UHGV virus genome: UHGV-0036582
DNA: 64,000 bases
Reading direction: 5' to 3' (one strand)
Origin: a virus
How positions within the stretch are numbered: position 1 is the first letter of the stretch; every line of letters starts with the position of its first letter. Under the pieces are notes generated by a model. It saw nothing but the letters and a program-made list of their open reading frames with translations. It was not told the DNA's origin and made no database searches. A program made the position numbers and the translations under genes. Shown one piece after another: positions 2,655 through 56,132 of the stretch.

Positions 2655-2687
2655 GTGAAAAATAATAACCGGACTTAGCCGGTTATT
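2655..2687 (-). terminator. intrinsic terminator after ORF 2700-3008
   Basis: 9-bp stem AATAACCGG / CCGGTTATT (2664-2687); on minus strand followed by ATTTTTCAC. Confidence 0.55.
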
Positions 2688-2699
2688 AACCTTATAGAT

Positions 2700-3008: not shown

Positions 3009-3011
3009 AAC

Positions 3012-3963: not shown

Positions 3964-4031
3964 GATAGTTTTAGAACAGAAAGTGAACAGTATGGGAGAC
4001 TTCATCTTTGTCTCCCTAATTGATAGCGTGA

Positions 4032-4310
4032 TTATTTTAATCTGCTTAATAGCGTTTCGAGATCTTCCTTTGTCATATTAGAGTTCTCATAGATACGCAT
4101 GATTTTCTCACGAGTCTTAGCGGAAGCCCCGACAGAAGATATAACCTTGTCAAAGTCGGCCATTGTCAATTGTTCCAGAATGGTATTTATGACTTCAGCC
4201 TTAGACATTTTGATATTTTTTTCTTTTAGTTTCACTTGAAACTTTCCAAGTTTGTCATTGGCCTTATCAGACAATGCTACCTGACAATAAGTTGTTTTCT
4301 TTTCGCTCAT
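4032..4310 (-). CDS. hypothetical protein
   Basis: 92-aa lysine-rich ORF directly downstream of helicase gene. Confidence 0.4.
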   Translation of the reverse strand: MSEKKTTYCQVALSDKANDKLGKFQVKLKEKNIKMSKAEVINTILEQLTMADFDKVISSVGASAKTREKIMRIYENSNMTKEDLETLLSRLK

Positions 4311-4312
4311 AA

Positions 4313-5872
4313 CTAATCTCGTTTCAGAACTCCAAAATCGAATGCTCCATCAATAGGCAATACACCTTCTGCAAAGCCAGGTGTGGTGTCGATGATGTGT
4401 TTTCGCTCATAAGAGTGAGACAACAGGTATTTGTTGCTAATGTCAATGAAATCAGTGATAAAACACACGTTTGCCTGATTTTTTTTGGCTCGTAAGCCAC
4501 GACCGACACGCTGCCTCATTTCAACTTCTGCTTTCCCACCACCAGCAAGAATGACCGCACCAACGCTTGGCACATCAACACCGACATCCAGAATAGTCGA
4601 GCCTATTAAAACATCTATTTCTCCAGACGCTAAACTGTTCAGCTTTGCTTGCCTTGTCGCCTGGTTAGATTCCCCATAGATGAAGTCAACTCTAAGGCCG
4701 GACTCTTTCATCATTTCCATCAGGATTTGCCCGTGGCGTTTAAGACGAACCAGAGTCATACAATTGAGAGAATGTTGCTTATAGAGCAATGCTTCGCGAA
4801 CAATGGCCTCGTTACGTCCCAAATTATACACGATCCCCAACTGATAAGCCTTTTGGTAGGCGGTGCTCATACCAACTCTAAAATTGAGGTGTTTGTTGGC
4901 AAGTTCGGCCTTGATTCTGGCCTCGTCTGGCTTGTAGGCAACTTTATGATAAAGGAAGTACGGCTTTGCCAGAATGCCTCGATCAATCAGGTACTTTTCT
5001 GTGACTTTAATTTCAATTCGCCCGGCCACCGCCATCAGGCGCATGTTGGCTTCCGTCGAATCCTTCATGAACGGCGTGGCTGTAAGCGCCAGACGATAGT
5101 CTGCGTTCACACATAATCTGGCGATGTCATAGAAATTTGAGCCTGAAGACTCATGCGCCTCTTCCAGAATAAGAAGAGAGACACTTGAAAGGAAGCGTTT
5201 CACCAACTCCCGACGTTTGAGGTGGTAGCTTTTCTTATCTGGTGTTGCATCGCGTGGTGGTTCTTCGAGGAAACTTGCAAGAGTTTGAACTGTAGCGACG
5301 TTGATATGTCGTGATACCTGGAACTCACCCGAGCCAATGACTCCAACCTTTTGGTCTTTTAACCACGGTTCGCCATTTTCGGCGCGGTAGTCGATGGATC
5401 TCTGGAAGTTTTCGGCCATTTGAAACATCAGAACAGAGCGGGTTGTTAAAAATAATGTCATTCGACCGATACGTGCAGCTGCTTTGCAGGCAACGTTAGA
5501 TTTCCCGCCACCAGTAGCGATCTGCGCAATCATCATTCCCTCTCGAACCAGTGTTTCCACAGTCTGATCCTGATACGCATAATCAGGATTGTATGGGAAT
5601 GGGTTAACCGCAGGATTTGGTTTACCAAGCGCCGGGGCTTTGTCTTTGCGGATATGAACACATTTGATGCCCGCCTTGTTCAAGTTCGCCGCTACAGGCT
5701 TGGCAAAGCCAGCAGGGAACGAGTTTTTACTCCAGTTGAACATCGTGCTTGTGCCCTTCCAGTCGCCAGTCTCGACTTCGTAGCTCAACATCTGTTGCAC
5801 CATTTGCTTTACCTTGTCATCTGCGCCAGAAATAAGCGCATTAACTGCGTTAGATACAATCCGAACAGTCAT
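4313..5872 (-). CDS. superfamily-2 DEAH-box DNA/RNA helicase
   Basis: Motif I ATGGGKS, motif II LILEEAHE (DEAH-type), motif III TATP, motif VI QRVGRGLR. Confidence 0.75.
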   Translation of the reverse strand: MTVRIVSNAVNALISGADDKVKQMVQQMLSYEVETGDWKGTSTMFNWSKNSFPAGFAKPVAANLNKAGIKCVHIRKDKAPALGKPNPAVNPFPYNPDYAYQDQTVETLVREGMMIAQIATGGGKSNVACKAAARIGRMTLFLTTRSVLMFQMAENFQRSIDYRAENGEPWLKDQKVGVIGSGEFQVSRHINVATVQTLASFLEEPPRDATPDKKSYHLKRRELVKRFLSSVSLLILEEAHESSGSNFYDIARLCVNADYRLALTATPFMKDSTEANMRLMAVAGRIEIKVTEKYLIDRGILAKPYFLYHKVAYKPDEARIKAELANKHLNFRVGMSTAYQKAYQLGIVYNLGRNEAIVREALLYKQHSLNCMTLVRLKRHGQILMEMMKESGLRVDFIYGESNQATRQAKLNSLASGEIDVLIGSTILDVGVDVPSVGAVILAGGGKAEVEMRQRVGRGLRAKKNQANVCFITDFIDISNKYLLSHSYERKHIIDTTPGFAEGVLPIDGAFDFGVLKRD

Positions 5873-5915
5873 AAACCTCTTTCCTTAGTGCCTTTTGTAT
5901 GTTATTTGGCTATTA

Positions 5916-5938
5916 TAATAAGTAAGTGATTACTTAGT
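5916..5938. promoter_or_regulatory. dyad TAAGTA/TACTTA motif in divergent promoter region
   Basis: ATAAGTAAGTGATTACTTAG between leftward helicase gene and rightward ParB-like gene; member of a recurrent intergenic motif family. Confidence 0.4.
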
Positions 5939-6635
5939 GGATTGTAGCAATAAAATGGATGTAAAAATCACGATTTTGCAGGTTGATGTTGCCAACCTTC
6001 GCCCGAATACCTGGAACACCAATTCGGTTGGTGCGCAGAATTTTGAAAAACTGAAAGGTTCTATCGAAAAATTGGGCTTTTTTAAGCCAATTTTGGCTCG
6101 TGAACTTGAAGATGGATTTTTTGAAATCCTCGGCGGCGAACATCGCTGGCGTGCTGCTATTGAGCAAGGAATTTCAACGGTTCCGGTGCTTTCTGTGGGC
6201 AAAATTAGCGATGTCGTAGCTAAACAGATGTCACTGGTGGACAACGAGCGATACGGTGAAGACGACCAAATCGCATTGCAACGCTTCATTGAAGAAATTC
6301 AGTCAGAACTTGACTATCAACTGTCTGAAATCGCCCCGTATGACGACGAAATCTCGATGGTTTTAGCAAAAGAGGCGGCAATCGACCTTGAAGCACTGGA
6401 GGCGTTGTCTCGTGGTAGTGATGAGCCTGTCGATACCGACAAACGAGAGAAAACCGAACGTGTGGGTGCGGAACATCAGACCATGCGCTTCAAAGTAACT
6501 TTCGATGCGTCAGATCGTGTTGCAGAAACCATAAAAAACATCATCAAAGAGCAGGCTATTAACACCGGTAATGAAATGGAGAACGCTGGTGAGGCTCTGG
6601 TGTGGCTGGTCGACTACTACAAGGAGCGTATGTAA
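5937..6635 (+). CDS. ParB-like nuclease-domain protein 1
   Basis: ParB/Srx N-terminal signature ILGGEHRWRAAIEQG (GxxRxRAA box); GTG start per ORF track. Confidence 0.65.
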   Translation: MDCSNKMDVKITILQVDVANLRPNTWNTNSVGAQNFEKLKGSIEKLGFFKPILARELEDGFFEILGGEHRWRAAIEQGISTVPVLSVGKISDVVAKQMSLVDNERYGEDDQIALQRFIEEIQSELDYQLSEIAPYDDEISMVLAKEAAIDLEALEALSRGSDEPVDTDKREKTERVGAEHQTMRFKVTFDASDRVAETIKNIIKEQAINTGNEMENAGEALVWLVDYYKERM

Positions 6636-7303
6636 TGACCAAAAAGTTTGAAATCGTATATCGCGACCCGGCAGATCTTATTCCCTATGAGATGAATGCC
6701 AAAAAGCATGATGAACAGCAGATCCGAGATCTGGCCGCAGCCATTAAAAAGCGCGGATTTGACCAGCCAATTACGGTCGATAAGAACGACGTAATTATTA
6801 CTGGCCACGGCCGCCGTGAGGCTGCAATTTTTGCTGGACTTGAGCGCGTACCGGTTATTGTTCGCGATGATCTCAGTGATGACGAGGTTCGTGCGAAGCG
6901 CCTTGAAGATAACCGACTTGCCAGCATTGATTACGATGCAATTAAGCTACAGAAAGAGCTTGAGTCGCTTGTTCTGGACGATATCGAGGTTTTCGGCTTT
7001 GAAGAGCGTGAGTTGAATGTTCTCGTTGGCAGTATGACAGAAGAAATGGACACCGACTCGCTAGTTATCGATCTTGGCGAAGAAACTAAACGACAGAAGG
7101 ATGAACACACCGAGATCAGTCGTGAAGTTGCAGCGGAAGAAGTACGTGTTGTCGACGTATTGGGCTTTAAAACGCTCCCTGCTGGCTCTGCCATTGTTGT
7201 TGGTGATTTGCTTGCCCATATGGAAGAAATGACGGGAGAAAGCGGGGTAGACGCATTTGTGGCATATGCGGAGAAGATCTCTTCCGGGGAGATGGCTGCA
7301 TGA
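6602..7303 (+). CDS. ParB-like nuclease-domain protein 2
   Basis: ITGHGRREAAIFAGL ParB-type arginine box; probable true start is the Met of MTKKFEIVY near 6636. Confidence 0.6.
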   Translation: MAGRLLQGAYVMTKKFEIVYRDPADLIPYEMNAKKHDEQQIRDLAAAIKKRGFDQPITVDKNDVIITGHGRREAAIFAGLERVPVIVRDDLSDDEVRAKRLEDNRLASIDYDAIKLQKELESLVLDDIEVFGFEERELNVLVGSMTEEMDTDSLVIDLGEETKRQKDEHTEISREVAAEEVRVVDVLGFKTLPAGSAIVVGDLLAHMEEMTGESGVDAFVAYAEKISSGEMAA

Positions 7304-39628: not shown

Positions 39629-40396
39629 TTATGCCGCGCTAACACTATGTTCAGTCCTAACCACTCCAACCTTCACAAAAGGGCTACCGTAGCTTGGTGG
39701 CTTCTTGATTAATTTGCCAACATACAGTTTTCTAATATGCTCATCGGCTATTCTGCCAACAAATTCATAACGTTTTGTGTCGGGGCCAAGAGCTATATCC
39801 CTTGTAAAGTACTGCTGAGAACCGGCTTTGACCCAGCATTCAATCTGATAAACTTCCATTATCAGCCCACCATATGTAGCGTAGGCATATTTGAGATTCT
39901 CGTCTCTTGGAACCTTTGCCCATACGCCACGCGTAGCTTCATATAATGCCAGAGCGGACATTCCTGACTTGTAGGTGCTGTTTAGCAGGAAGGCAAGACC
40001 GGCGTGCTCAGGAGCAATTTCAGTTTCCTCTTGCAGCACTAAGTGATGGTAGGCGTCCAGTGATATTCTGCCCATCATGGAACCACTTCCTCGTACCTTA
40101 TTCGTAAGCTCTCCGACCCCCATAAGGTCGATGCATGTCGCCTCAACAAGTTTGGCTGTGGTTTCATCCATACCATGACGAAGTATATCTATGCCTAATT
40201 TTTTATTAGCCAAAAGTTCTTTGATCCGCATGGATTTGGGAGAGTCATCGGGATACTTGATGTGATCGAGACAACGAGTCGATTTGCCTTTTCCTATGTA
40301 AAACGGTCTTTTCATCTTGTCTTCTGTATCATAGAGACAGTAAACATAGTATTTAGCCTTATCCAATGATCTCGCGTATACCGATAAATCGTCCAT
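39629..40396 (-). CDS. GIY-YIG family endonuclease (homing-endonuclease-like)
   Basis: N-terminus YVYCLYD-(10 aa)-FYIGKGKSTRCLDH matches GIY...YIG...R..H spacing. Confidence 0.6.
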   Translation of the reverse strand: MDDLSVYARSLDKAKYYVYCLYDTEDKMKRPFYIGKGKSTRCLDHIKYPDDSPKSMRIKELLANKKLGIDILRHGMDETTAKLVEATCIDLMGVGELTNKVRGSGSMMGRISLDAYHHLVLQEETEIAPEHAGLAFLLNSTYKSGMSALALYEATRGVWAKVPRDENLKYAYATYGGLIMEVYQIECWVKAGSQQYFTRDIALGPDTKRYEFVGRIADEHIRKLYVGKLIKKPPSYGSPFVKVGVVRTEHSVSAA

Positions 40397-41464: not shown

Positions 41465-42805
41465 ATGACCGAACTTTGCCATACAGGACGCGGGCTGTCC
41501 GAAGAGTTTGATGAAGATTTTCAGAACAGATTGACGGCCTATTTTTGTCGTGATCACGAGTTTCTTACTCGTGCTGGAGATCTGGTTGTACCTAGCCAAT
41601 TTGCCAATGCGGCCAATGCCATATTGGTTAATATGGTTTCGGGCTATTACCGTATGTACAAGAGCGCGCCCTCTTCATCTGCGATTCTGGATATGCTTAA
41701 GCGTGCGAAACGCGATAAGACTATCCGTGAGGAACTATTCGCCGATGTTGTTGCTGCGTTTAAGCGCATCCTTGCAGAAAAATTGTCTGATACCTCGTAC
41801 ATGGTTGACCAGGTATCAACCTTCGCAAAAAGCGTAGCGTTTGATGATGCTCTGATTAAGGCTGCTGAACTGAAAGAGAAGGGCGACTTTCAGGGGGCGA
41901 TGGCAATCATGGCCAAGGTTCAGCAGATTGGATCGAACGAAGCGACCGGAATCTATGACTACTACACCTCCGCAAGTGAGCGATTGAAAGCGCGTGAATA
42001 TGAGGCTTCAGAGGAGTATGTGCCAAACAGCATTACAACTGGACTCCCTCTGCTCGATAGGTTGCTGTACCAAAAAGGCTGGGCGAAGCGTGAAATGGTG
42101 CTCTTCATGGGGTTCGCTAAATCCGGTAAATCGACCGCAATGGGTGAGTTTTCCATAAACGCAACGCTTGCTGGCTACAATGTTCTGTATCTCTCGCTGG
42201 AGGTTCACACCAACATTTTGTCCGACCGCTTTGATGCAAGATTGTCGGAGACGGAAATGTCCAAGCTGGTGGAACGGCGCGATGAAGTTCATCGTAAGTT
42301 GGCAGAGTTGGGAGCCACTAAGGGGATTGGTAGTTTGTGGGTTGTTGAGCGTCCGTCAGGAAGTATGTCACCGGCAGATCTGGACCGTATGCTTAACAGT
42401 ATGAAAGCCAATGGCATGGTGCCTGACATGGTTGTTGTCGACTACGCAGATTTGATGCGTGCCAGTTATGACCTTCGTGATGATCGCGCCAATATTCGTA
42501 GTATCTACACCGATTTACGTGCTCTTTATGACAAGCATAACGTTGCTGGGATCACGGCATCGCAGACAAACCGTGAAGGTGGCGCGTCAGAAGTTGCCAC
42601 AATGATGCACGCCGCCGATAACATCGAAAAAGTACGTATTGCTGACCTGGTAATAACGATCAACAAAACCGAAGAAGAAGAAGCGAAAGGAGAGGCTCGT
42701 CTCTACTTTGCTGGTTCACGTAACCAGCAGGGTGGGATCAGCATTCGCGTTAAACAAAACCTCGAACAAATGCGTTTCATTGAGCGAATCTTAGACGTTA
42801 CCTAA
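41465..42805 (+). CDS. dnaB: DnaB-like replicative DNA helicase
   Basis: Walker A GFAKSGKST, Walker B MVVVDYADLM, ITASQTNREG arginine-finger region; N-terminal helical domain. Confidence 0.8.
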   Translation: MTELCHTGRGLSEEFDEDFQNRLTAYFCRDHEFLTRAGDLVVPSQFANAANAILVNMVSGYYRMYKSAPSSSAILDMLKRAKRDKTIREELFADVVAAFKRILAEKLSDTSYMVDQVSTFAKSVAFDDALIKAAELKEKGDFQGAMAIMAKVQQIGSNEATGIYDYYTSASERLKAREYEASEEYVPNSITTGLPLLDRLLYQKGWAKREMVLFMGFAKSGKSTAMGEFSINATLAGYNVLYLSLEVHTNILSDRFDARLSETEMSKLVERRDEVHRKLAELGATKGIGSLWVVERPSGSMSPADLDRMLNSMKANGMVPDMVVVDYADLMRASYDLRDDRANIRSIYTDLRALYDKHNVAGITASQTNREGGASEVATMMHAADNIEKVRIADLVITINKTEEEEAKGEARLYFAGSRNQQGGISIRVKQNLEQMRFIERILDVT

Positions 42806-42814
42806 AAAATAAGC

Positions 42815-44068
42815 GTGGAGAACACCTCCACGCTTGATTCATTTGTGAAACAACTTTTCTTTTGCCAAACCACAAAAGAAAAACACATGAGCCTTTATGT
42901 TATATCAACATTTAGGTTGGTCACAATATTGCCTGTTAAAAGTGGAATTATCGTGAGCGAGCTGAAAGAGCTAATTGCCGAATTAGATTTTGAACAATGG
43001 TTGGATACTGAAGGTATCGTTTATCGACGTGGAGGCGTGAGTGCTCGCGGTCGTGAAGTGAATATCAAGGAATGTCCGGTATGCGGCAGCTCCAACTGGA
43101 AGGTATATTTCAATCTGACCAGTGGCGTCGGCAAATGCTTTGCTGGTGATCATCCCGAAGAGATTCAGTTCAATAAGCTGGTCTTCCTCAAGCACTACAG
43201 CGGCAAATCACGACGACAGTTCGAGGAATATGTGCAGAACGCTCTTCTTTCCCAGGGGTGGGCACCAAAGAAAGAAGAGATAGTGCTTGCAAGCACAGTC
43301 GAGTTAGAGGGACCAGTTGCCCTCCCTCGTCATTACGAACTTCCTATAGATGGCCGTCTTCCAGACTATCTGGTTGAACGAAACATATCGCCTGAAATGG
43401 CAAAGTATTTTGACCTACGATACTGCGTCGAAGGCAAGCACGCTTATGTAGATCCGTATACAGATCAGGTAAAAGGACAGATATTCGATATGCGAATACT
43501 CATACCGGTTTACGATCTGGATGGGGTAATGAAGACATTTCAGGGACGAGACATTACCGGTACAGCAGAACGTCGCTACCTCTTTCCTATGCAGCTTCCA
43601 GCTTCAGGTAAGTTTCTCTACAACGGCCATAATGCAGTCGGCAAACAGACGGTAGTTGTCTGTGAGGGGGCGTTCGATGTTATGGGGGTCAAACGAGCTA
43701 TTTTTGACGAAGAAACATTACGTGATTACGTGGAACCAATAGGAACGTTCGGGATGCATCTATCTGGCAACACCACTCAGGATGCAGAAGATCAGCTGGG
43801 CGCGTTCCTGACGCTCAAGGCGCGTGGATTACGTAATGTGATCATGATGTGGGATAGTGAAAAGCAAGCTATACGCAACACTATGGCCGCAGCTAGGCGA
43901 CTCACAAGTATTGGCCTTAATGTCAAAGTTGCGTGTTTGGGCGAGGAAGGACTCGACCCCGGCGATGCGACACCGGGGCAGATTATCAAAGCCTACTATT
44001 GCGCAAAACCTTATTCACGACAGCTTGAACTCTTAAGCAAGGTGAAAGGCATTGCAGCACTAGTTTGA
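42815..44068 (+). CDS. DNA primase (zinc ribbon + TOPRIM)
   Basis: CPVCGSSNW...GKCFAGDHP zinc ribbon; TOPRIM-like VVVCEGAFDVMGV and MMWDSE; start uncertain. Confidence 0.7.
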   Translation: MENTSTLDSFVKQLFFCQTTKEKHMSLYVISTFRLVTILPVKSGIIVSELKELIAELDFEQWLDTEGIVYRRGGVSARGREVNIKECPVCGSSNWKVYFNLTSGVGKCFAGDHPEEIQFNKLVFLKHYSGKSRRQFEEYVQNALLSQGWAPKKEEIVLASTVELEGPVALPRHYELPIDGRLPDYLVERNISPEMAKYFDLRYCVEGKHAYVDPYTDQVKGQIFDMRILIPVYDLDGVMKTFQGRDITGTAERRYLFPMQLPASGKFLYNGHNAVGKQTVVVCEGAFDVMGVKRAIFDEETLRDYVEPIGTFGMHLSGNTTQDAEDQLGAFLTLKARGLRNVIMMWDSEKQAIRNTMAAARRLTSIGLNVKVACLGEEGLDPGDATPGQIIKAYYCAKPYSRQLELLSKVKGIAALV

Positions 44069-45097
44069 ACCAGTATTAGTCACGTAAACATTGACCGAAA
44101 ATGATTTAACTTCTGTGTTGAAGTTGTCAGTCATTACCGCGAGGTAGGCATTCTTGGTATCTCTGAATTGCTTCAGGATGATTTGAACGTTATCGGTGCA
44201 AACAAACGAGGTAGCCAGATTGCCTCCTTTCTCTGAAAAATCCTTTAGGAAAGTGCAGTCAATTTTGCCATCATTAGCGGTGAAGGTGGCATCATCACCC
44301 TGCCAGGTAAATGTTGCGTTAACGCCTTTATCAATGGATTTAGCAATAAGTCGCTGAGTGGAGGATTTTGCTTTAGATCTTGCTGCTGATGGTTGGTATT
44401 TACCGCTTTCTTTTAGTTCTGCAATGTAATCACAGCCATTTTTATCTTCTTTATCGCAAGCTGCCTGATAAAGCTCAGCTGCTTTTTTATAATCTTTTTT
44501 AACCCCTTCACCATACTCATACATAATGCCAAGATTCGCCAATGCAGATGCACTGCCTAGTTCGATTCCTTTTTTATAATACTCTATTGCCTTTTTGTAG
44601 CTTTTTGGCACGCCTGCGCCAACATAATATAACTGTCCTAAATATGACGCAGATTCAGGGTCGCCAGCCTCTACTGCAAGTTTGTGATATTTCAGGGAAA
44701 GTTTTTGGTCTTTCTTACCCGCAAGTCCTTTATGATAAATAACACCCAGATTGTGATAAGAGTTGCCTCCAGCTGCATCACCAGCTTTCTTAAAGAGTTC
44801 CTCTGCCTTTTTGAAATTTTTATCAACCCCATACCCAAGGGCATACATTATACCTAGAGCATTAAACGCTTCTTTGTTCCCCTTAGAAGTCGCCAGTTCA
44901 AGCCATTTTCTGGCTTCATCGTAGTTTTTTTCGACACCATGAATACCTTTCATATAGTCGATACCTAAAGCACTCTGTGACTCAACGTCGCCTGCTTTTG
45001 CCGCATCGATCAGCTTTTGTATTTCATAGGCATGTGCACTCCCCGAAACAAGTAATAGCGACAACATAAAGAAAGATATTGGTTTGAAATGTTTCAT
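44060..45097 (-). CDS. secreted Sel1-repeat (TPR-like) protein, moron
   Basis: Signal peptide MKHFKPISFFMLSLLLVSGSAHA; at least six Sel1-type ~36-aa repeats; antisense to flanking operon; sampled line about 37 percent GC. Confidence 0.75.
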   Translation of the reverse strand: MKHFKPISFFMLSLLLVSGSAHAYEIQKLIDAAKAGDVESQSALGIDYMKGIHGVEKNYDEARKWLELATSKGNKEAFNALGIMYALGYGVDKNFKKAEELFKKAGDAAGGNSYHNLGVIYHKGLAGKKDQKLSLKYHKLAVEAGDPESASYLGQLYYVGAGVPKSYKKAIEYYKKGIELGSASALANLGIMYEYGEGVKKDYKKAAELYQAACDKEDKNGCDYIAELKESGKYQPSAARSKAKSSTQRLIAKSIDKGVNATFTWQGDDATFTANDGKIDCTFLKDFSEKGGNLATSFVCTDNVQIILKQFRDTKNAYLAVMTDNFNTEVKSFSVNVYVTNTGSN

Positions 45098-45278
45098 TTT
45101 TGGATTTTCACAAGATGGTTAGGTGGTTGTGGCTACTCGGTGTAAGGCTTTGTAATCACCGATTGGTAAGGTTACTTCAATTTAGCTTAACTGTCAGCAT
45201 ACCCAATCGCCGAAAAGATAAGTAGATGATTACTTATTGGTGTGTAAGAATACTGCCATCTGTTAGCTAGGAGTTGGT

Positions 45279-46061
45279 ATGAAAGAAGAAATTAAGAGAT
45301 TAGCCTGCAACATCATTGATAAAACTGGTTTAGAAATCAGCGAGAGCAATCGGCTAGACATCATTGAAAAAGCCGTCAATACGGCAATGGATCATATCGC
45401 CACTCGTTTGGTCGAGATCCCGCTACCGGGGCTACCTTATCTGAAGGTTAAGTTGCGCGTATGGGGCGAACCTGCACATGCACGACGTTCTGCATTAGTT
45501 GTTTTTGTACGCAAAGAAAACTTACGAACTCTAAAAGTGCAGGTTGGGGCGTGGTTTGATGGCAGAGTCATCTATACAGATACCATTATCTGTCCTCCAG
45601 GTGACGAACATATTGAAGCCGTCATTCGAGAATCAATTCGAGCTATGCGCAGTTTAGCTTTGCTGGAAGACAAGCAAAACTTTGAAGATTACTTGCTGTC
45701 GGTAAAAGCTGAACCAACATTGTCTCTGAAAGCCGATTTCGTCACCCCGACAAATCTGTTGGAGGTTTTGATTAATAAAGGGGCTAATGATGCTGTAAAC
45801 CTAATCAGGGAAAGCGAATATTCGACTCTTTGCGACATGTGCAAAAGCCAGTTGGATCTTGTGCATATCATTGTTGATGCGGGGAAGGCGTGTGATGGCG
45901 TAATGGCGGAATTTGCTGGGAAGATGGTCAGGATTGCTAATGAATTACCGATGATAGAGCAAGAGGCCAAATCATACGCCACCAATCATGTCACAGAGCT
46001 TCTTGCCCCCTATCGCTTAGAAAGCGATCAGCGCAAGATGATTAGCTGGGGAAGTTGGTAA
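45279..46061 (+). CDS. hypothetical protein
   Basis: 260-aa ORF preceded by dyad TAAGTA motif at 45217. Confidence 0.4.
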   Translation: MKEEIKRLACNIIDKTGLEISESNRLDIIEKAVNTAMDHIATRLVEIPLPGLPYLKVKLRVWGEPAHARRSALVVFVRKENLRTLKVQVGAWFDGRVIYTDTIICPPGDEHIEAVIRESIRAMRSLALLEDKQNFEDYLLSVKAEPTLSLKADFVTPTNLLEVLINKGANDAVNLIRESEYSTLCDMCKSQLDLVHIIVDAGKACDGVMAEFAGKMVRIANELPMIEQEAKSYATNHVTELLAPYRLESDQRKMISWGSW

Positions 46062-46128: not shown

Positions 46129-46599
46129 GTGAAAGCTGATTTGTCAAAAATCCCTTCTATTTCAGGAAATAACGGTTATTCACTTCGTTGTGAGGAAGTA
46201 AAGATAAACGGTGAGTCGGCATATTGCAGCTATTCCGTTTGCCAGCACACCATTCTTGCCTTCAAAGAAAACCGTCTTCCTCGAACTTCTTTCCAGTCGT
46301 GCGCAACCGCTATTAAAGCAGGCAAATGTAAGGCGTTAAAAATGATGGTTGAAGAGATTCGTAAAGGAGAATCTCTGTATTTCGAAGATATGACCGCACT
46401 CATTAAGGAGGTTGAAGAACGGAATAAACAAGCCAGAACTTTAAAACGAAAACGTGACAGTGTAACTATTAATAGCATGGTTAAGAAGAGCGCCACATCA
46501 CAAACATCGATCTCTGACGTGTATGCGGCATTGCTTGAAGAAACAACAAAAGAAACACATGAGCAAATCGATCAACATATGGAGGCAAAACAACAATGA
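46129..46599 (+). CDS. hypothetical Cys-rich protein
   Basis: 156 aa with N-terminal C-x-C...C..C cluster. Confidence 0.4.
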   Translation: MKADLSKIPSISGNNGYSLRCEEVKINGESAYCSYSVCQHTILAFKENRLPRTSFQSCATAIKAGKCKALKMMVEEIRKGESLYFEDMTALIKEVEERNKQARTLKRKRDSVTINSMVKKSATSQTSISDVYAALLEETTKETHEQIDQHMEAKQQ

Positions 46600-47918
46600 A
46601 AAAGTTGATCGCACTTAAGCATAAGCTGGACGAAATGAAAGCTATGGGAACCAATGCAAAAAAAGAGGCATTGGCCAACATGGATGACTTCGAGCAAAGC
46701 ATGGTTTCATTGATGCTCAACCCTTTCATCCGTTTTGGGGTAAAGAAATACAAAGTGGCAGAGCCGCTTAGTGAGTCCGTCCCAAGTGACGAAAAAGCCA
46801 TTGATGTACTGAATAAGCTGGCCTCTCGCGAGCTGACGGGGAACGCAGCAATAGCTGCTGTTGAGTCTATCGTGGCGTCAATGTGCGCCGATGGGCAGGA
46901 CGTGTTCCGTCGTTTCCTCTTAAAAGACCCGAAAGCGGGTGTTGGGATTAGCCTATGCAACAAGGTTTTTGAAAATCCCATTCCGAAATTCGAGGTGCAG
47001 CTGGCGTCACCGTATAAAGAAAAAGGCGACAAATACCCCTTCAAGCCAAACCCTAAAGCAAAATGGCCGATGATTGGCAGCCTTAAGCTCGATGGTTTGC
47101 GAGTAATTTGCGAGGTTATTGTTGACGAAGAAGAGGTTAACTTCCTTTCTCGTACTGGTAATCCAATCACGTCTCTCGATCACCTAAAGCCAGCCATGCT
47201 CGAATTAGGCAAACTTTCAGGCCACAAACACATCTTCTTCGATGGTGAAGGCACAGCCGGTTCATTTAACCAGTCCGTATCTGCATTGCGCAAAAAGAAC
47301 GTGCAGGCAATTGGCGCTATTTATCATGTTTTCGACTTCTTCCTACCGGAATGGCGAGCACAGGCTAAATCCAAAGAGTATGCAAAGACAGGTATGAAGC
47401 TGAAAGAGCGCCTGGCTATGCTCGTGGCGTTGTTCAAAAACGATCGCAGTGAAGGCTACGCACAAGACATTCACCTGCATCCGTTCTACATCATCCATAG
47501 CCACGAAGACTTCATCGAACGCTTCATGAAACGCCTGGACGATAACGAAGAAGGGGAGATGGGCAAAGATCCGAACTCTGTTTACGAGTTTAAACGTACC
47601 CGCAGCTGGTGGAAGTTAAAAGACGAAGATTCAGAAGATGGTGAAATTATCGATTTTGAGCCGGGCGACCCGGACTCTGGTTTTGCCAACACGCTTGGGA
47701 AAATTGTTATTCGTCTTGAAAACGGCGTCATCGTTCGTGCGAGCGGCATTAAGCATAAATATCTGGACGAGATCTGGAACAACAAAGAGAAGTACCGTGG
47801 TCGTATTGTCGAGGTTCATTGTCACGAGAAAACACCTGATGGCAGCTTACGCCACCCACGACTGAAATGGCCGCGTTGCTTACGCGATACCGAAGATCGA
47901 ATCGGAGATAAAGAATGA
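46596..47918 (+). CDS. ATP-dependent DNA ligase
   Basis: Nucleotidyltransferase motif I K-x-D-G-x-R in SLKLDGLRV. Confidence 0.65.
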   Translation: MKKLIALKHKLDEMKAMGTNAKKEALANMDDFEQSMVSLMLNPFIRFGVKKYKVAEPLSESVPSDEKAIDVLNKLASRELTGNAAIAAVESIVASMCADGQDVFRRFLLKDPKAGVGISLCNKVFENPIPKFEVQLASPYKEKGDKYPFKPNPKAKWPMIGSLKLDGLRVICEVIVDEEEVNFLSRTGNPITSLDHLKPAMLELGKLSGHKHIFFDGEGTAGSFNQSVSALRKKNVQAIGAIYHVFDFFLPEWRAQAKSKEYAKTGMKLKERLAMLVALFKNDRSEGYAQDIHLHPFYIIHSHEDFIERFMKRLDDNEEGEMGKDPNSVYEFKRTRSWWKLKDEDSEDGEIIDFEPGDPDSGFANTLGKIVIRLENGVIVRASGIKHKYLDEIWNNKEKYRGRIVEVHCHEKTPDGSLRHPRLKWPRCLRDTEDRIGDKE

Positions 47919-50092: not shown

Positions 50093-51355
50093 TTACTTTG
50101 CATAGTCGCCCAATTTTAATATTTCGCGCTTATATTCATTAACCATGCTACTGGATTCAGTATAAATTCGATTTAAAAGATTATCGTTATCTTTATTTTC
50201 ATTTATCTTAATTAGTGCTAATTTATATTCATAGTCATCAAATGCCACAATTAAATGGTGGCCTGGGATTATATCTTCGTCACTCTTAAAGTATATATCT
50301 TCAAGTATGTAATCTAGTTGATTAGATTTTCTTTTCTCGATGTAATCTTCAGCCATAGCTATTACATCATTCCTGTCATTTAACCTGTTTTTTTCGGAAG
50401 GCACATCTTCGTAATGTTGCACGATTGAACAACCAATAAGGCGTGGGATGTAAACGTCAAAATGAGTAACTCTATCATTCGCGGTTTTAAGTAGTTCCTC
50501 AAAGTAGTTTCTTACATGTAAAGGCAACTTCTCAAAGTAATCATTAATTATAGGAGAACAAGGAGTTTTATAATTCATAAGAACCGACGGTACGAGCTTT
50601 GGGTGTCGAAACATCCAGTCCCTTTTAACGTCCGATGGAACATAATAACTTTTAATGATATTATCAAAATAATTTATCATTCGAGATTTGAATATTTTGT
50701 TGAATCTAAGGTTTATGAATGTATCCAGATAAGGCATATTTGAATAAGCATCATCAAAAAATATTTCATCATTGAAAAAATCATATTTATTCAATAAACA
50801 ACACAGTTTTTCCGAATTAATATGTTCACAATAATCGATTTTTAATCCAAAGATAGCAATGATCAACTTCATCTGAGGTGGGATTTTAAAAATTAATTGT
50901 GACACATACGCTCTTTTTTCCTTGAGACATTCCCCATCAATATAAAATGAACCATCCACATACTCAAATATATTAATAATATGCTTCACATACTGTATTA
51001 CCTCATGCTGTCTTACCAATGGATAATATAGTCTATGTAACTCATCGCTGTTTAAATTAATTTTGTGTTTATCGATAATTTGTTTTGCAAGAAGACATAA
51101 CTCATCATGTTGATTTAATAAGGAATCAAACCATTGTTTAAATGCACTCTTTCGCATTTCGAACAATGATTCAGTTGTTAATTGAAGGGCTGAAAAAGCT
51201 GCTTTTGCACTTTTTCTCGCTTCGTAGGCATTCCATGCTGTTGCTATAAAAGCAAATGCTGTAGCCAATGTTCCAACAGTTTGACCATTTAAAACAACCC
51301 AATCCCAAAAAATGACGGTGAGCAGTAGTATAATAATGAAAATTAAAAAAGGCAT
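50093..51355 (-). CDS. AT-rich moron: membrane-anchored protein of unknown function (candidate exclusion/abortive-infection factor)
   Basis: 420 aa; N-terminal hydrophobic segments (FLIFIIILLLTVIFWDWVV, VGTLATAFAFIATAW); hand-counted GC about 20-28 percent in sampled lines versus about 50 percent in structural genes; opposite strand to flanking genes. Confidence 0.6.
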   Translation of the reverse strand: MPFLIFIIILLLTVIFWDWVVLNGQTVGTLATAFAFIATAWNAYEARKSAKAAFSALQLTTESLFEMRKSAFKQWFDSLLNQHDELCLLAKQIIDKHKINLNSDELHRLYYPLVRQHEVIQYVKHIINIFEYVDGSFYIDGECLKEKRAYVSQLIFKIPPQMKLIIAIFGLKIDYCEHINSEKLCCLLNKYDFFNDEIFFDDAYSNMPYLDTFINLRFNKIFKSRMINYFDNIIKSYYVPSDVKRDWMFRHPKLVPSVLMNYKTPCSPIINDYFEKLPLHVRNYFEELLKTANDRVTHFDVYIPRLIGCSIVQHYEDVPSEKNRLNDRNDVIAMAEDYIEKRKSNQLDYILEDIYFKSDEDIIPGHHLIVAFDDYEYKLALIKINENKDNDNLLNRIYTESSSMVNEYKREILKLGDYAK

Positions 51356-51985: not shown

Positions 51986-53089
51986 ATGAAAAATAGCTTT
52001 GACAGAGCACGCGCTGCGGAGAACACCTCAAAAGAGGCGATAGAGTATCTCGAAAGAGCATCTCAAATGCAGGCCGTTATGATCTCCCAGGTCAGCAATG
52101 ACATGAGATTCTCGGACGCATTCATGTTATTCACTCGCTTATCTCTGCTGATAACCAGACGTCGGCCAGAGATCGCTGTTCATTGTATTTTGATACATGT
52201 TTTGCCGCACCTTGCCGATGTAAAAGTAAGTGACATTAATAGGTTCATGGTGAACCAACTGGTCAACCCACTAATACTGGATGGCAAAATTGTTATGGGC
52301 CGCCGCGTTTTCTCTCTGATGAAGCAGTTCCTTAGCTGGTGCGCCTTCCAGGGGATGATAGACGTGTCACCGTTAAACGATATGTCACTTAACAATGTTG
52401 CCGGTGGCGCAAAGCCCACACCTCGCGAGCGGAAGCTGACCGACGCAGAGGTATGGGTGTTCTGGAATATATGGGACTACTTCAATGTGTGCGCTGGTAC
52501 AAAATGGGCGGCCAGGCTATGTCTTGTATCCGCAAGACGACCTGACGAAGTACTGCGGGCTAAAAAAAGTGAGTTCAACCTCCAGCGTGGGGTTTGGAAT
52601 CAAGGCAAGAGAAACAAATCAGCCCGTGAGCATTCTCTGCCTTTAAGCACATTAATGCGCACATGCATTGAAGAGTTATTCGAATATGGTAAAGGCAGCC
52701 AGTGGCTTGTGCCTTCGAATAAAAAAATCGGGAATGATCTTCCGATGTCTAAAGTGGCAATAGCCCAGGCATTACGCCGTATCCTGGAACGACCAGAACT
52801 GATGGAGCTTGAGCCATTTACACCCCGAGATTTGCGTCGTACTGCGCGTAGTTACTTCCCAGCATTAGGCATAAGCCAGGAGGTATCACGCAAAATCATG
52901 AACCACAGTCTTGAGGGGATAGATCGGGTCTACGACCGGCACGATTATATGGACGAGATGCGAGACGCCTTAGAAAGTTTCTCGACGTACATCGCATCAA
53001 TCGTAGAGCAACCGGATTTAGACGAAATTGACCACAAATTCAAGGGAGATCGTCTATCAACAGAGCTTATTCGTGTAAATTTTTCATAG
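51986..53089 (+). CDS. tyrosine recombinase / phage integrase family
   Basis: C-terminal catalytic block PRDLRRTARS ... MNHS ... VYDRHDY (Arg/His/Tyr positions of the tyrosine recombinase fold); 367 aa. Confidence 0.7.
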   Translation: MKNSFDRARAAENTSKEAIEYLERASQMQAVMISQVSNDMRFSDAFMLFTRLSLLITRRRPEIAVHCILIHVLPHLADVKVSDINRFMVNQLVNPLILDGKIVMGRRVFSLMKQFLSWCAFQGMIDVSPLNDMSLNNVAGGAKPTPRERKLTDAEVWVFWNIWDYFNVCAGTKWAARLCLVSARRPDEVLRAKKSEFNLQRGVWNQGKRNKSAREHSLPLSTLMRTCIEELFEYGKGSQWLVPSNKKIGNDLPMSKVAIAQALRRILERPELMELEPFTPRDLRRTARSYFPALGISQEVSRKIMNHSLEGIDRVYDRHDYMDEMRDALESFSTYIASIVEQPDLDEIDHKFKGDRLSTELIRVNFS

Positions 53090-54032: not shown

Positions 54033-56132
54033 ATGTCTAAAAAACGTTCCATCAAAGAGGTTCAGGACTTCCGTGACAGTGTAAAACGAGTAGTCGCTCT
54101 CCTTTCAGGTAAAAACATCCCTGTTGCAGAACGAGGGGACGACGCTTATGTACGCTATAACGATGATGGAGAGCCAATTCTCGTAAACATCCCATCAATC
54201 CCGGATAACGCAACACCAGCATTGATGAATGCTGTGCGCGGATTTCTCGATCATGAGGTTGCTCACATTTTGTTTACCGATATTCATGTGTCCAACAAAA
54301 TGAGAGAAAAAGGACGCGTTCCTTCCTGGTCGCTATGGAATGCCTTAGAAGACGTGTTTATCGAGCGAAAAATGGGGCAGGTCTTTAACGGAACAAGACG
54401 TAATCTGATGGCAACTCAGCGCCTTATAATCGAAAAAGTCTTTAAACCAAAGGCTTCAGAGGCTATTACTTATTGTGGCAAAGATCAGCGCGCGCTTTTT
54501 CTAAACTTCTTTCTCTGTCCGGTTGTAAGAGCCTGGGATGGCCAAGCACCGTTCGTAGATTTCATGGATGAATACTGGCCTGTCATTGAGAAACCAATTT
54601 CATTATTAAAAGAACATGGTATCGATGTGGCCGTGCGTAACATGTCTTGCACCGGGGATTGTTTAAAGGTGGCTGCGACCATCGCTAAGATCCTCAAAGA
54701 CACAGAAAGTGAAAGCAAAGGTAAGGAGTCAGCTCCGGGAAAAACTTCCGATCCTTCAGACGCTGATCACGCGGATTCCTCTGGAGAAGGCGATGAAGAT
54801 CACAAGACACCCGAATCGTTAGATAATCACATATCTATTAAAGAAAATTCAAAAGGTAAGCACAAATACGATAATAACAACAGTGATAATTCAGATAACT
54901 CTGAATCATCAGAAACAATATTCGATGATACAGAAAATGATAAAGAGGTATCAGATTCTGGTGCTTCTGATAACGCGGCGTCAGAAGCATTGACCACTGA
55001 CCACGAAAAAAGAAAATCGACAGAAGACGGCTCTTCAGACATTCCAACTCCGTCAAAAATGAGTCTGGAAGAGGCTTTAGAGGAGTTGGATAGCATGGAA
55101 GATGAAGTCGGAGGCATGACAGAAGATGCGCTATCCGAAACGATTAAAAGCGAGTTAACAGAAAGCTCGAAAAGCGAATACAGGCCATACAATCGCTCAT
55201 ACGACTTCATCGGCTCGATTGATCAGGCAGAAGCCCATATCAAACGGCTTATTAAAACATTCTCCGATATTGATTTAGGTGGATATCCAATCAGCCGTTA
55301 TCGCATCGTTCCTGAAGGCAACCAACTCTTCGACAAATATATTGAAAAGCACCTTTCGTCAGGTGTTTCGTCGACGCTGGCAAAAGACCTGGAACGTGCA
55401 ATAGCAAGCAGAAACAGAGTTCAGTTTATACCTGGCCAGCGTCGGGGGCGCATTCATGGTTCAAGTATCTACAGATTAACAATGAATGATGATCGCGTGT
55501 TTCGTAAAAAAGAAGAATCTAAAGCCGTTAACGCCTGTGTTCAACAAGTGATTGATTTATCAGGTTCAATGAGTGGTATAACGATACAATTGGCTCTTGC
55601 AAGTGCATATACCATCGCCGATGCCCTTGATCGAATAAATGTTCCCAACATTATCACCGGCTTCACTACATTTGGTAGTCATATGGCGGCAGGAGAACTT
55701 AAGGCTGTCAAGTATGAGTTCTCTCGCTTTGAATCTTTAATGCTACCTATCATCAAAAATTGGAATGAAAAGGTAAATTCTCGCGAAGTTCGCTCACGTA
55801 TGGGGTGCGTAGGCTACACATTCCCACTTCTTAATAACGTGGATGGTGAAAGCATAGCCAGCCTTGCATCGTTATTTTCCGGTCGCATGGAGGACAGGAA
55901 GATCATGCTTGTTCTGAGTGATGGCGCGCCGTGGGCTGTTGGGAGAGGTTTTGACGCTCATTTGCGTTCGGTTGCGAAGCAAATTGAAACGCAGACTGAT
56001 ATTGATTTGATGGCAATTGGCATCATGACTGACGCACCGGAGAGATTTTACTCAAATCATGCCCTGGTAACGAGCGTTGATAGTCTTGGTTCATCTGTAG
56101 TTACTGAACTATCTCGTATCATTTTAAAGTGA
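54033..56132 (+). CDS. CobT-like von Willebrand factor A (VWA) domain protein
   Basis: C-terminal MIDAS motif VIDLSGSMSG; long acidic Ser/Asp/Glu-rich insert at about 54700-55100. Confidence 0.7.
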   Translation: MSKKRSIKEVQDFRDSVKRVVALLSGKNIPVAERGDDAYVRYNDDGEPILVNIPSIPDNATPALMNAVRGFLDHEVAHILFTDIHVSNKMREKGRVPSWSLWNALEDVFIERKMGQVFNGTRRNLMATQRLIIEKVFKPKASEAITYCGKDQRALFLNFFLCPVVRAWDGQAPFVDFMDEYWPVIEKPISLLKEHGIDVAVRNMSCTGDCLKVAATIAKILKDTESESKGKESAPGKTSDPSDADHADSSGEGDEDHKTPESLDNHISIKENSKGKHKYDNNNSDNSDNSESSETIFDDTENDKEVSDSGASDNAASEALTTDHEKRKSTEDGSSDIPTPSKMSLEEALEELDSMEDEVGGMTEDALSETIKSELTESSKSEYRPYNRSYDFIGSIDQAEAHIKRLIKTFSDIDLGGYPISRYRIVPEGNQLFDKYIEKHLSSGVSSTLAKDLERAIASRNRVQFIPGQRRGRIHGSSIYRLTMNDDRVFRKKEESKAVNACVQQVIDLSGSMSGITIQLALASAYTIADALDRINVPNIITGFTTFGSHMAAGELKAVKYEFSRFESLMLPIIKNWNEKVNSREVRSRMGCVGYTFPLLNNVDGESIASLASLFSGRMEDRKIMLVLSDGAPWAVGRGFDAHLRSVAKQIETQTDIDLMAIGIMTDAPERFYSNHALVTSVDSLGSSVVTELSRIILK

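What the first reader, a model, noticed from the sequence alone, without database searches (positions are those of the whole stretch)
44060..45097. Secreted Sel1-repeat protein encoded antisense inside the replication module
A 345-aa protein with a Sec signal peptide and at least six Sel1/TPR-like repeats is encoded on the minus strand between the primase and downstream rightward genes, in DNA of visibly lower GC (about 37 percent in a sampled line). Sel1-repeat proteins commonly mediate protein-protein interactions at the cell envelope, so this is a candidate lysogenic-conversion or exclusion moron.
Basis: partly seen in the sequence, partly recalled or inferred. Interest (0 to 1): 0.5.

Follow-up and report, generated by a model that had tools for sequence, protein, structure and literature searches.

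The report
Portable periplasmic Sel1-plus-barrel cargo gene
A real, conserved accessory gene of an SSU5-type phage-plasmid encodes an exported Sel1-repeat protein ending in an undescribed small beta-barrel; it hops between phages, plasmids and chromosomes, probably protects the host cell envelope, and its function is untested.

Summary
The ORF 44060-45097(-), 345 aa, is real. It has Pfam Sel1 at E 1e-37, belongs to PHROG 8741 (function unknown), and shows dN/dS of 0.03-0.19. RefSeq already calls it "tetratricopeptide repeat protein".

The window is an SSU5/pECOH89-like phage-plasmid. The gene is convergent with the primase and overlaps its stop by 9 nt.

The protein has four parts:
- a Sec-type signal peptide;
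- five full Sel1 repeats plus capping helices, not six or more;
- a short linker;
It has no Pfam or PDB sequence relative and only 8 representatives among 1.84 billion proteins.

GC is only modestly low: 40.6% against 46.4%, the 5th percentile.

The slot is polymorphic. It is empty in most Escherichia relatives and in isolated phages. It is occupied in about 91 plasmids. It holds a different gene in SSU5.

E. coli alleles share a 98-99% identical barrel but deeply divergent Sel1 modules with 5, 6 or 7 repeats. This pattern comes from recombination, not positive selection.

The gene carries a conserved promoter-like block. It also occurs in a contractile-tail prophage, in other plasmids, in a CdiA-fragment (orphan-CDI-like) island and in an IS-captured chromosomal fragment.

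So it is a portable moron. Periplasmic immunity or exclusion is the best guess, and it is unproven.

The parts
44060..45097 (-). Complete ORF, 345 aa: signal peptide, Sel1 solenoid, linker and beta-barrel C-terminal domain (CTD). Identical to RefSeq WP_001718051.1 'tetratricopeptide repeat protein'.
45029..45097 (-). Codons 1-23: Sec-type signal peptide MKHFKPISFFMLSLLLVSGSAHA, with predicted cleavage AHA|YE. No lipobox.
   Evidence: charge and hydrophobicity. (conserved in homologues). (pLDDT below 50 for residues 1-19).
44393..45028 (-). Codons 24-235: Sel1-like-repeat solenoid. It has an N-terminal half repeat, 5 full 36-37-aa repeats and a cap helix carrying the invariant C214-x7-C222 pair.
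   Evidence: One search gives the Foldseek matches LpnE, LceB, HcpC and EsiB at E about 1e-12.
44360..44392 (-). Codons 236-246: basic, low-confidence linker that varies between homologues.
44063..44359 (-). Codons 247-345: conserved eight-stranded up-and-down beta-barrel domain with invariant C281 and C300. It has no Pfam or PDB sequence relative.
   Evidence: pLDDT 84. (fold matches). (no sequence family). (8 representatives in 1.84e9 proteins).
44060..44068 (.). A 9-nt convergent overlap of the Sel1 stop region with the primase stop region. The Sel1 TAG stop is the complement of the primase Leu codon CTA. The overlap is conserved in the E. coli and Enterobacter versions.
45169..45197 (-). 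Promoter-like block CTGACA-N17-TAACCT, about 100 nt upstream of the ATG. It is conserved in 7 of 10 genomic contexts of the family.
   Evidence: It scores 8/12 against the sigma-70 consensus, below the threshold of the scan.
44069..45190 (.). Approximate extent of the cargo segment that is absent from 'empty' relatives such as PhiR41_1, Cyrano and most Escherichia/Shigella plasmids.
42815..44068 (+). Flanking DNA primase (Toprim, phrog_47). It is part of the backbone, not of the cargo.
45279..46061 (+). Flanking backbone gene (phrog_4248, function unknown).

Best explanation
Shown or strongly supported (about 0.9):
- The gene is a self-contained accessory ('moron') gene of an SSU5/pECOH89-type phage-plasmid.
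- It encodes a protein whose sequence indicates Sec export to the periplasm.
- The mature protein, about 35 kDa, has two binding-type modules. One is a five-repeat Sel1 solenoid. The other is a disulfide-containing eight-stranded beta-barrel that defines a very small family found only on mobile elements of Enterobacterales and a few chromosomal islands.
- The barrel is kept nearly constant. The Sel1 module is exchanged by recombination between deeply divergent versions with 5, 6 or 7 repeats.

Inferred (about 0.35-0.4):
- The gene is transcribed from its own weak sigma-70-like promoter while the phage-plasmid is carried as a plasmid.
- In the periplasm the protein acts as a stoichiometric binder that protects the carrier cell. 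It would neutralise or intercept an incoming periplasm-acting protein, such as a superinfecting phage component or a toxin from a bacterial competitor.
- In this model the constant barrel supplies a common function (an inhibitor-like plug or an anchor to a conserved partner). The variable Sel1 surface supplies specificity.
For: Real, selected gene:
- Pfam Sel1 E 1e-37.
- PHROG 8741 E 1e-143.
- dN/dS 0.03-0.19 between classes. Within a class, pN/pS is 0.15 for Sel1 and 0.05 for the barrel.

Export:
- Signal-peptide features.
- Four invariant Cys.

Architecture:
- The models have pLDDT above 90 for the solenoid and 84 for the barrel.

Accessory nature:
- The slot is empty in PhiR41_1, Cyrano, CMS-2020a and most Escherichia/Shigella plasmids.
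- About 91 of 358 backbone plasmids are occupied.
- 62 of 5426 complete E. coli genomes carry the family, all on plasmids.
- SSU5 holds an unrelated gene there.

Portability:
- The same family lies inside the tail module of a sheath-bearing prophage (L034).
- It lies next to tail-fibre-like and umuD-like genes in Leclercia.
- It is on a Pantoea megaplasmid, and next to a plasmid Rep gene.
- It sits among CdiA (filamentous-haemagglutinin) fragments, an orphan-CDI-like island, in Pseudenterobacter.
- It sits as an IS3-flanked fragment, with a primase remnant, in the E. whittamii chromosome.

Own promoter-like block in 7 of 10 contexts.

Modular recombination:
- The barrel is 98-99% identical between E. 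coli classes, against 54-68% for the Sel1 part.
- Synonymous distances for the two modules are discordant.

Hints towards an inhibitor or immunity role:
- A BFVD hit is annotated 'putative lysozyme inhibitor'.
- Sel1-repeat proteins serve as T6SS immunity proteins: the PA5086-88 structures appear among the hits, and Klebsiella Sel1E is described in PMC7108748.
- The 381- and 417-aa E. coli-type alleles examined are accompanied by a lipoprotein gene in the same slot.
Against: - No experiment or expression data exist for this gene.
- No match to any PADLOC defence model.
- No cognate toxin or effector gene is adjacent in the window.
- There is no sequence relation to MliC/PliC.
- No signature of positive selection on the Sel1 surface.
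- The promoter-like block is weak (8/12), the Shine-Dalgarno sequence is poor, and no terminator was found.
- The best structural matches of the solenoid are host-interaction proteins (LpnE, LceB, HcpC, EsiB), not immunity proteins.
Confidence: 0.4

Rival explanations
1. Host-interaction or colonisation factor (classical lysogenic conversion). The Sel1 protein reaches the cell surface or the milieu and binds a eukaryotic host molecule, as proposed for EsiB (secretory IgA), LpnE/LceB and the Hcp proteins.
For: - The best Foldseek matches of the solenoid are LpnE, LceB, HcpC and EsiB/c5321, at E about 1e-12 and 27-33% identity.
- Carriers include ETEC, STEC and clinical isolates.
Against: - Those matches reflect the generic Sel1-repeat fold.
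- Only a Sec signal is present, with no evident route across the outer membrane.
- Carriers come from cattle, pigs, chickens, river water and soil as much as from patients.
- Homologues occur in plant- and environment-associated Pantoea and Leclercia.
Confidence: 0.15
2. Periplasmic regulator or adaptor of a host envelope process. It would bind a sensor kinase domain (like ExoR), a secretion or motor component (like AlgK or MotX), or a peptidoglycan enzyme. This would remodel the envelope for the benefit of the plasmid-state phage.
For: - Weak NCBIfam similarities to AlgK, MotX and ExoR (E 1e-7 to 7e-3).
- AlgK structures appear among the Foldseek hits.
- The same phage-plasmid also carries an FljA-like flagellin repressor, so envelope or motility reprogramming is a theme.
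Against: - All those scores are far below the family cutoffs (30-40 bits against 330-700).
- Deep allelic replacement of the Sel1 module fits poorly with a conserved host target.
Confidence: 0.2
3. Component of the phage's own lytic programme (replication, lysis or virion assembly).
For: - It lies inside the replication module and overlaps the primase stop.
- In L034 the homologue lies inside a tail module on the same strand.
Against: - It is absent from isolated SSU5-like phage genomes (PhiR41_1, Cyrano, SSU5) and from most relatives.
- It is on the opposite strand in the window.
- It is exported.
- It is retained alone in chromosomal contexts.
Confidence: 0.05
4. The minus-strand transcription unit matters mainly as an antisense or convergent regulator of the primase/replication operon, and the protein is secondary.
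For: The arrangement is convergent with a conserved 9-nt overlap, and no terminator was found between the two genes.
Against: - Strong purifying selection acts on the protein.
- The gene keeps its coding capacity in contexts without any primase.
Confidence: 0.05

Closest known systems
Bacterial Sel1-like-repeat (SLR) exported proteins: H. pylori HcpB/HcpC, Legionella LpnE/LceB, UPEC EsiB (c5321)
   Same: - Signal peptide plus a right-handed solenoid of 36-aa helix-turn-helix repeats.
- 27-33% identity and Foldseek E about 1e-12.
- One C-x7-C pair, as in Hcp repeats.
   Different: - Only the last repeat carries the cysteine pair, whereas Hcp proteins have one per repeat.
- It carries an extra C-terminal beta-barrel that none of those proteins has.
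- It is encoded on phage-plasmids and other mobile elements.
SLR-type T6SS immunity proteins (P. aeruginosa PA5086/5087/5088 for PldB; K. pneumoniae Sel1E for VgrG4)
   Same: - Sel1 solenoids that protect by binding a toxin (PMC7108748).
- They appear among the structural matches (E 4e-5 to 6e-4).
- One homologue lies among CdiA (filamentous-haemagglutinin) fragments, an orphan-CDI-like island.
   Different: - No effector gene is adjacent here.
- The structural similarity is weaker than to the generic SLR proteins.
- The barrel domain is absent from those immunity proteins.
PliC/MliC/PhiA periplasmic lysozyme or peptidoglycan-hydrolase inhibitors, and small barrel T6SS immunity proteins (BtaiB)
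   Same: - Periplasmic eight-stranded beta-barrel of about 100 aa with a disulfide.
- A phage 'putative lysozyme inhibitor' appears among the BFVD hits.
   Different: - 6-11% identity.
- No hit to the MliC Pfam model or to any PDB sequence.
Phage morons and exclusion genes (lambda bor/lom, T4 sp/imm, T5 llp)
   Same: - An extra gene present in some but not other closely related genomes.
- Its own promoter-like signal.
- An envelope-targeted product.
- Slightly different base composition.
   Different: - No sequence or structural relation to any of them.
- Expression and phenotype are untested.
- No terminator was detected.

Membership tests
Pfam Sel1 repeat (PF08238) / SLR fold | Repeats score above the Pfam gathering threshold | tested here: met
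   127.6 bits against a cutoff of 30.7, in 5 stretches
Pfam Sel1 repeat (PF08238) / SLR fold | Alpha-alpha solenoid structure similar to solved SLR proteins | tested here: met
   The AlphaFold model has pLDDT above 90 for residues 24-220. Foldseek matches LpnE, LceB, HcpC and EsiB at E about 1e-12.
Sec-exported periplasmic protein | N-terminal signal peptide with n, h and c regions and an A-x-A cleavage site; no lipobox | tested here: met
   Heuristic only. Net charge +2, a 13-aa hydrophobic core with mean Kyte-Doolittle hydropathy 2.2, AHA|Y. Conserved in homologues, with 4 invariant Cys. SignalP and localisation experiments were not available.
Helicobacter cysteine-rich proteins (Hcp) | A disulfide-forming Cys pair in every SLR repeat | tested here: not met
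   Only one C-x7-C pair (C214/C222), in the last repeat or cap
MliC/PliC lysozyme inhibitors | Match to the MliC/PliC sequence family | tested here: not met
   No Pfam hit for any of 10 barrel domains at E up to 5. No PDB sequence hit.
MliC/PliC lysozyme inhibitors | Eight-stranded periplasmic beta-barrel fold | tested here: inconclusive
MliC/PliC lysozyme inhibitors | Inhibition of lysozyme activity | not testable with these tools
   Needs a biochemical assay
T6SS/CDI immunity protein | Encoded directly next to its cognate toxin gene | tested here: not met
   The neighbours in the window are the primase and phrog_4248. In Pseudenterobacter it lies among CdiA (filamentous-haemagglutinin) fragments, one with a PT-VENN domain, but about 0.9 kb from the nearest fragment and with its own promoter block.
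Known anti-phage defence systems (PADLOC-DB v2) | Significant match to a defence-protein model | tested here: not met
   Only a noise-level PtuA hit, E 7.6e-4 with 0 stretches
Phage moron | Present in some but absent from other closely related genomes at the same site | tested here: met
Phage moron | Own promoter and terminator | tested here: inconclusive
   A conserved CTGACA-N17-TA(A/C)CCT block that scores only 8/12. No terminator was found.
Phage moron | Base composition different from its neighbours | tested here: inconclusive
   GC 40.6% against 46.4%, z -1.64, 5th percentile
Phage moron | Expressed from the repressed prophage / plasmid state | not testable with these tools
   No transcriptome data were found
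Outer-membrane eight-stranded barrel (OmpX/OmpA/PagL type), considered for the C-terminal domain | Domain of about 150 aa or more with long strands and a C-terminal aromatic beta-signal | tested here: not met
   99 aa, mean strand length about 8.5 residues. The C-termini vary and are non-aromatic (…TNTGSN, …VSE, …VTK). There is an invariant Cys pair.

The most novel reading that the evidence does not exclude
The Sel1-plus-barrel proteins would be the founding members of a modular periplasmic immunity or superinfection-exclusion family. In this reading a conserved PliC-like barrel blocks or anchors, and an exchangeable Sel1 solenoid sets specificity. The target would be periplasm-acting weapons such as phage tail lysins or injection proteins, colicins, or T6SS or CDI toxins. 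The family would spread as a promoter-equipped cassette between phage-plasmids, prophages, plasmids and chromosomes of Enterobacterales.
Probability: 0.2. Interest if true: 0.65.

Novelty: new variant of a known kind. Interest (0 to 1): 0.4.

Why it matters
SSU5-type phage-plasmids are common in clinical and livestock E. coli, Enterobacter, Citrobacter and Salmonella. They are mostly noticed for carrying resistance genes, and their other cargo is largely uncharacterised.

This gene is one of only two counter-oriented genes in the co-directional structural-plus-replication block of this element. The other resembles the PD-T4-3 defence gene.

Three properties are typical of conflict genes:
- a constant barrel combined with swappable Sel1 modules;
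- portability between unrelated mobile elements;
- retention after chromosomal capture.

If it proves to be a periplasmic immunity or exclusion factor, it would add a new protein architecture to phage-encoded host protection. It would also help to explain competition among co-circulating phage-plasmids. If not, it is still a clean example of a moron hot-spot and gives a name-worthy new domain.

Tried and rejected
1. I first read the BLAST breakpoints as meaning that the cassette supplies the last 18 primase codons. One search shows the primase tails are homologous in all variants, only more diverged. The claim is withdrawn.
2. Positive or diversifying selection on the Sel1 module is not supported. 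dS is saturated between classes with dN/dS about 0.14. Within a class pN/pS is 0.15. The diversity comes from recombination of old alleles.
3. The C-terminal domain as an outer-membrane barrel is rejected on size, strand length, lack of a C-terminal aromatic signal and the invariant cysteines.
4. A sequence link of the C-terminal domain to MliC/PliC, DUF4251 or Big_5 was not found. The single Big_5 hit is a short motif match.
5. A CpxR-box-like motif (CTAAA-N5-GTAAC) inside the promoter block is not conserved in the Enterobacter and Pseudenterobacter copies and was dropped.
6. PADLOC gave no defence-family match.
7. The AFDB50 fold library was unavailable.
8. Literature searches for phage-encoded Sel1 proteins, SSU5 with Sel1, and pECOH89 found nothing on this gene.
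9. The other cargo genes of the slot (SSU5_041 and the pECOH89 lipoprotein) have no known function, so they give no functional lead.
Full report
**1. Observation**

The ORF exists exactly as stated: 44060..45097, minus strand, 345 aa.
- It matches Pfam Sel1 (PF08238) at E 1e-37, 127.6 bits against a cutoff of 30.7, in five repeat stretches.
- It matches PHROG 8741, a phage protein family of unknown function, at E 1e-143.
- No plus-strand ORF longer than 66 aa overlaps it.
- Its neighbours are a DnaB-like helicase (41465-42805), a Toprim primase (42815-44068), phrog_4248, phrog_5055 and an ATP-dependent DNA ligase (46596-47918), all on the plus strand.
- In the roughly 43-kb co-directional block from 5.9 to 49 kb, only two genes point the other way: this one and a GIY-YIG gene at 39629-40396.
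- GC is 40.6% against 46.4% for the window, z -1.64, 5th percentile, with GC3 0.36. That is lower, but not striking. The window holds far stronger outliers at 50-51 kb.

**2. What the element is**

The window is an SSU5/pHCM2/pECOH89-type phage-plasmid.
- The flanks match Escherichia phages PhiR41_1, Cyrano and CMS-2020a at 92-95%, and match 358 plasmid records.
- RefSeq already annotates the identical protein (WP_001718051.1, plasmid pRM13322) as 'tetratricopeptide repeat protein'.

**3. Anatomy of the protein**

- Residues 1-23 form a Sec-type signal peptide: MKHFKP with charge +2, a 13-residue hydrophobic core, then SAHA|YE, with no lipobox. The pattern is conserved in homologues.
- Residues 24-235 form a Sel1 solenoid. 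It has an N-terminal half repeat, five full 36-37-aa repeats and a cap helix.
- Foldseek places the solenoid with generic exported Sel1 proteins (LpnE, LceB, HcpC, EsiB/c5321; E about 1e-12, 27-33% identity). The T6SS immunity proteins PA5086-88 follow at E 4e-5 to 6e-4.
It is an eight-stranded up-and-down beta-barrel. The domain-only model has pLDDT 84 and pTM 0.73.
- All four cysteines are invariant in the family: C214/C222 in a C-x7-C arrangement, and C281/C300 in the barrel. This fits an oxidising compartment.
- The barrel has no Pfam hit and no PDB sequence hit.
- An exhaustive search of 1.84 billion representative proteins found only 8 relatives. They include a distant protein with the same signal-Sel1-barrel architecture (P0124, 37% identity in the barrel) and a barrel-only protein (P0123).
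- The hits also include the periplasmic lysozyme inhibitors PliC (8.0 and 7.8), MliC/YdhA (7.2) and PhiA (7.2), and the T6SS immunity protein BtaiB (8.0).
- In the viral structure library, the best matches are small phage proteins, one of them annotated 'putative lysozyme inhibitor'.
- This is similarity at the level of fold only.
- An outer-membrane barrel is unlikely. The domain has 99 aa, its strands average about 8.5 residues, the C-termini are variable and non-aromatic, and there is a conserved Cys pair.

**4. The locus is a cargo slot**

- Compared with 'empty' relatives, about 1.12 kb (window about 44069-45190) lies exactly between the primase stop and a conserved CAATC(A/G)CC...AAGATAAGTA sequence.
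- My first reading, that the cassette replaces the primase tail, was wrong. The tails are homologous.
- The Sel1 stop codon is the complement of the penultimate primase codon. The 9-nt overlap is the same in pECOH89, an ETEC plasmid and an Enterobacter cloacae plasmid.
- Most Escherichia/Shigella backbones are empty.
- 91 plasmid records carry the barrel: 60 Escherichia, 22 Enterobacter and 8 Citrobacter.
- 62 of 5426 complete E. coli genomes carry the family, always on plasmids. The window's allele occurs in only three of them.
- No isolated phage in the phage collection has the gene.
- SSU5 itself holds an unrelated 321-aa gene in the slot.
- The 381- and 417-aa E. coli-type alleles examined are accompanied by a 137-aa lipoprotein gene (lipobox LVGC, phrog_2320). 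The Enterobacter-type 417-aa loci (L035/L036) and the window-type allele show no match to it.
- A few large plasmids keep only a 3' remnant of the barrel.

**5. Modular alleles**

- E. coli phage-plasmids carry at least three allele classes: 345 aa with 5 repeats, 381 aa with 6, and 417 aa with 7.
- Their barrels are 98-99% identical. Their Sel1 parts are only 54-68% identical, which is as divergent as comparisons between genera at 52-58%.
- Between the window and the pECOH89 allele, synonymous sites in residues 1-172 are saturated with dN/dS about 0.14. The barrel has dS 0.16 and dN about 0.
- Within the 381-aa class, pN/pS is 0.15 for Sel1 and 0.05 for the barrel.
- The two modules also give discordant synonymous distances for the same pairs. 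L019-L022 gives 0.27 against 0.03, and L019-L028 gives 0.04 against 0.20.
- The pattern is therefore recombinational exchange of old Sel1 modules on a constant barrel, under purifying selection. It is not positive selection.

**6. Portability**

A block CTGACA-N17-TA(A/C)CCT lies 88-107 nt upstream of the ATG (window 45197-45169, minus strand). It is conserved in seven of ten contexts examined:
- the window;
- pECOH89;
- the ETEC plasmid;
- the E. cloacae plasmid;
- the chromosomal copies in Pseudenterobacter and E. whittamii;
- in variant form (TATTCT), a contractile-tail prophage.

It is a weak sigma-70-like signal at 8/12 and fell below the scan threshold. No terminator was found, and the Shine-Dalgarno sequence is poor.

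Outside SSU5-like elements the family occurs in these places:
- between tail-sheath/tube and downstream tail genes of a contractile-tail prophage (L034);
- downstream of a tail-fibre-like ORF and upstream of umuD-like genes in Leclercia, frameshifted in one genome and intact in viral contigs;
- on Pantoea megaplasmids;
- next to a plasmid Rep gene, for P0124;
- among CdiA (filamentous-haemagglutinin) fragments, an orphan-CDI-like island with IS elements, in Pseudenterobacter timonensis;
- in Escherichia whittamii, as an IS3-flanked fragment that still carries a 72-aa primase remnant, inserted between ompW-yciCB and yciA-tonB, with the Sel1 ORF intact.

The last case shows the gene being kept after the rest of the phage-plasmid was lost.

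**7. Mechanism**

Shown or well supported:
- It is a selected, self-contained accessory gene.
- It encodes a protein with a Sec-type signal peptide, so export to the periplasm is predicted.
- The protein has two binding-type modules.

Inferred:
- It is expressed from its own promoter in the plasmid state.
- It acts as a periplasmic binder that protects the carrier cell (immunity or exclusion). The barrel would supply a constant function and the Sel1 module the specificity.

The arguments for this are the conflict-gene-like population pattern, the company it keeps and the precedents.
- The company it keeps: a lipoprotein partner, a neighbouring PD-T4-3-like gene and an orphan-CDI-like island.
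- The precedents: Sel1-type immunity proteins (PMC7108748; PA5086-88) and barrel-type periplasmic inhibitors.

The arguments against are:
- no defence-family match;
- no adjacent toxin gene;
- a generic barrel fold;
- no positive selection;
- no data on expression or phenotype.

I put about 0.9 on the descriptive part and about 0.35-0.4 on the protective function.

Rival explanations and my estimates:
- envelope regulator or adaptor, about 0.2;
- host-interaction factor, about 0.15;
- role in the lytic programme, about 0.05;
- mainly antisense regulation of the primase operon, about 0.05.

**8. Novelty and verdict**

- The gene is already annotated generically, and its Sel1 part is ordinary.
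- Not described, as far as the libraries and literature searched here show, are the C-terminal barrel domain, the signal-Sel1-barrel architecture, its restriction to mobile elements of Enterobacterales, the modular allele structure, and the cassette-like mobility with a linked promoter block.
- I rate it a new variant of a known kind, of moderate interest (0.4).
Its interpretation as a moron is supported. The proposed exclusion or conversion role remains a reasonable but untested hypothesis.

Noticed in passing
window 39629-40396 (-): A 255-aa GIY-YIG protein (Pfam LEM-3-like GIY-YIG, phrog_5356) matches the PADLOC anti-phage defence model PD-T4-3 at E 1.3e-23. It is the only other counter-oriented gene in the long plus-strand block and is conserved in PhiR41_1 and many relatives. 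At the equivalent place SSU5 has a DUF2971 protein that matches PADLOC PDC-S31, so this looks like a second cargo or defence slot.
   Followed up: partly
window 3012-3614 (-): A 200-aa protein matches Pfam 'Repressor of phase-1 flagellin' (FljA-like, PF03614) at E 2.5e-84, and phrog_1444 'transcriptional repressor'. It is a possible lysogenic-conversion function acting on host flagellin expression.
   Followed up: no
window 50093-51355 (-): A 420-aa ORF with very low GC (31%), the strongest compositional outlier in the window. It has no Pfam or PADLOC hit and matches only phrog_18168 (function unknown). A tyrosine integrase/recombinase gene lies nearby at 51986-53089.
   Followed up: partly
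window 4313-5872 (-): A 519-aa SF2 helicase (ResIII/DEAD/Helicase_C) has partial similarity to PADLOC PbeA models (E 7e-23). It lies in a minus-strand gene cluster at the left end of the window (1766-5872).
   Followed up: no
L003 (pECOH89) 4939-5352 (+); also L019-L033: A 137-aa lipoprotein gene (MSKNKLILTGALLSLFALVGC..., phrog_2320, function unknown) accompanies the 381- and 417-aa E. coli-type Sel1 alleles examined. It gave no match in the Enterobacter-type loci L035/L036 and is missing next to the window-type 345-aa allele. The two may be a functional pair.
   Followed up: partly
L011 (Escherichia whittamii NZ_JACSQI010000004.1) about 3550-6950: IS3 remnants, an intact Sel1-barrel gene and a 72-aa primase fragment are inserted between chromosomal ompW-yciCB and yciA-tonB. 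This is a chromosomal capture of a piece of an SSU5-like phage-plasmid.
   Followed up: partly
L034 (IMGVR_UViG_3300012846_000002) 5059-6300: A 413-aa family member is inserted, on the same strand, between the tail sheath/tube genes and the downstream tail genes of a contractile-tail prophage. This is an unusual position for a cargo gene.
   Followed up: partly
window 54033-56132 (+): A 699-aa CobT/VWA-domain protein (CobT_C at E 1e-82) is encoded on the phage-plasmid. Its role was not examined.
   Followed up: no
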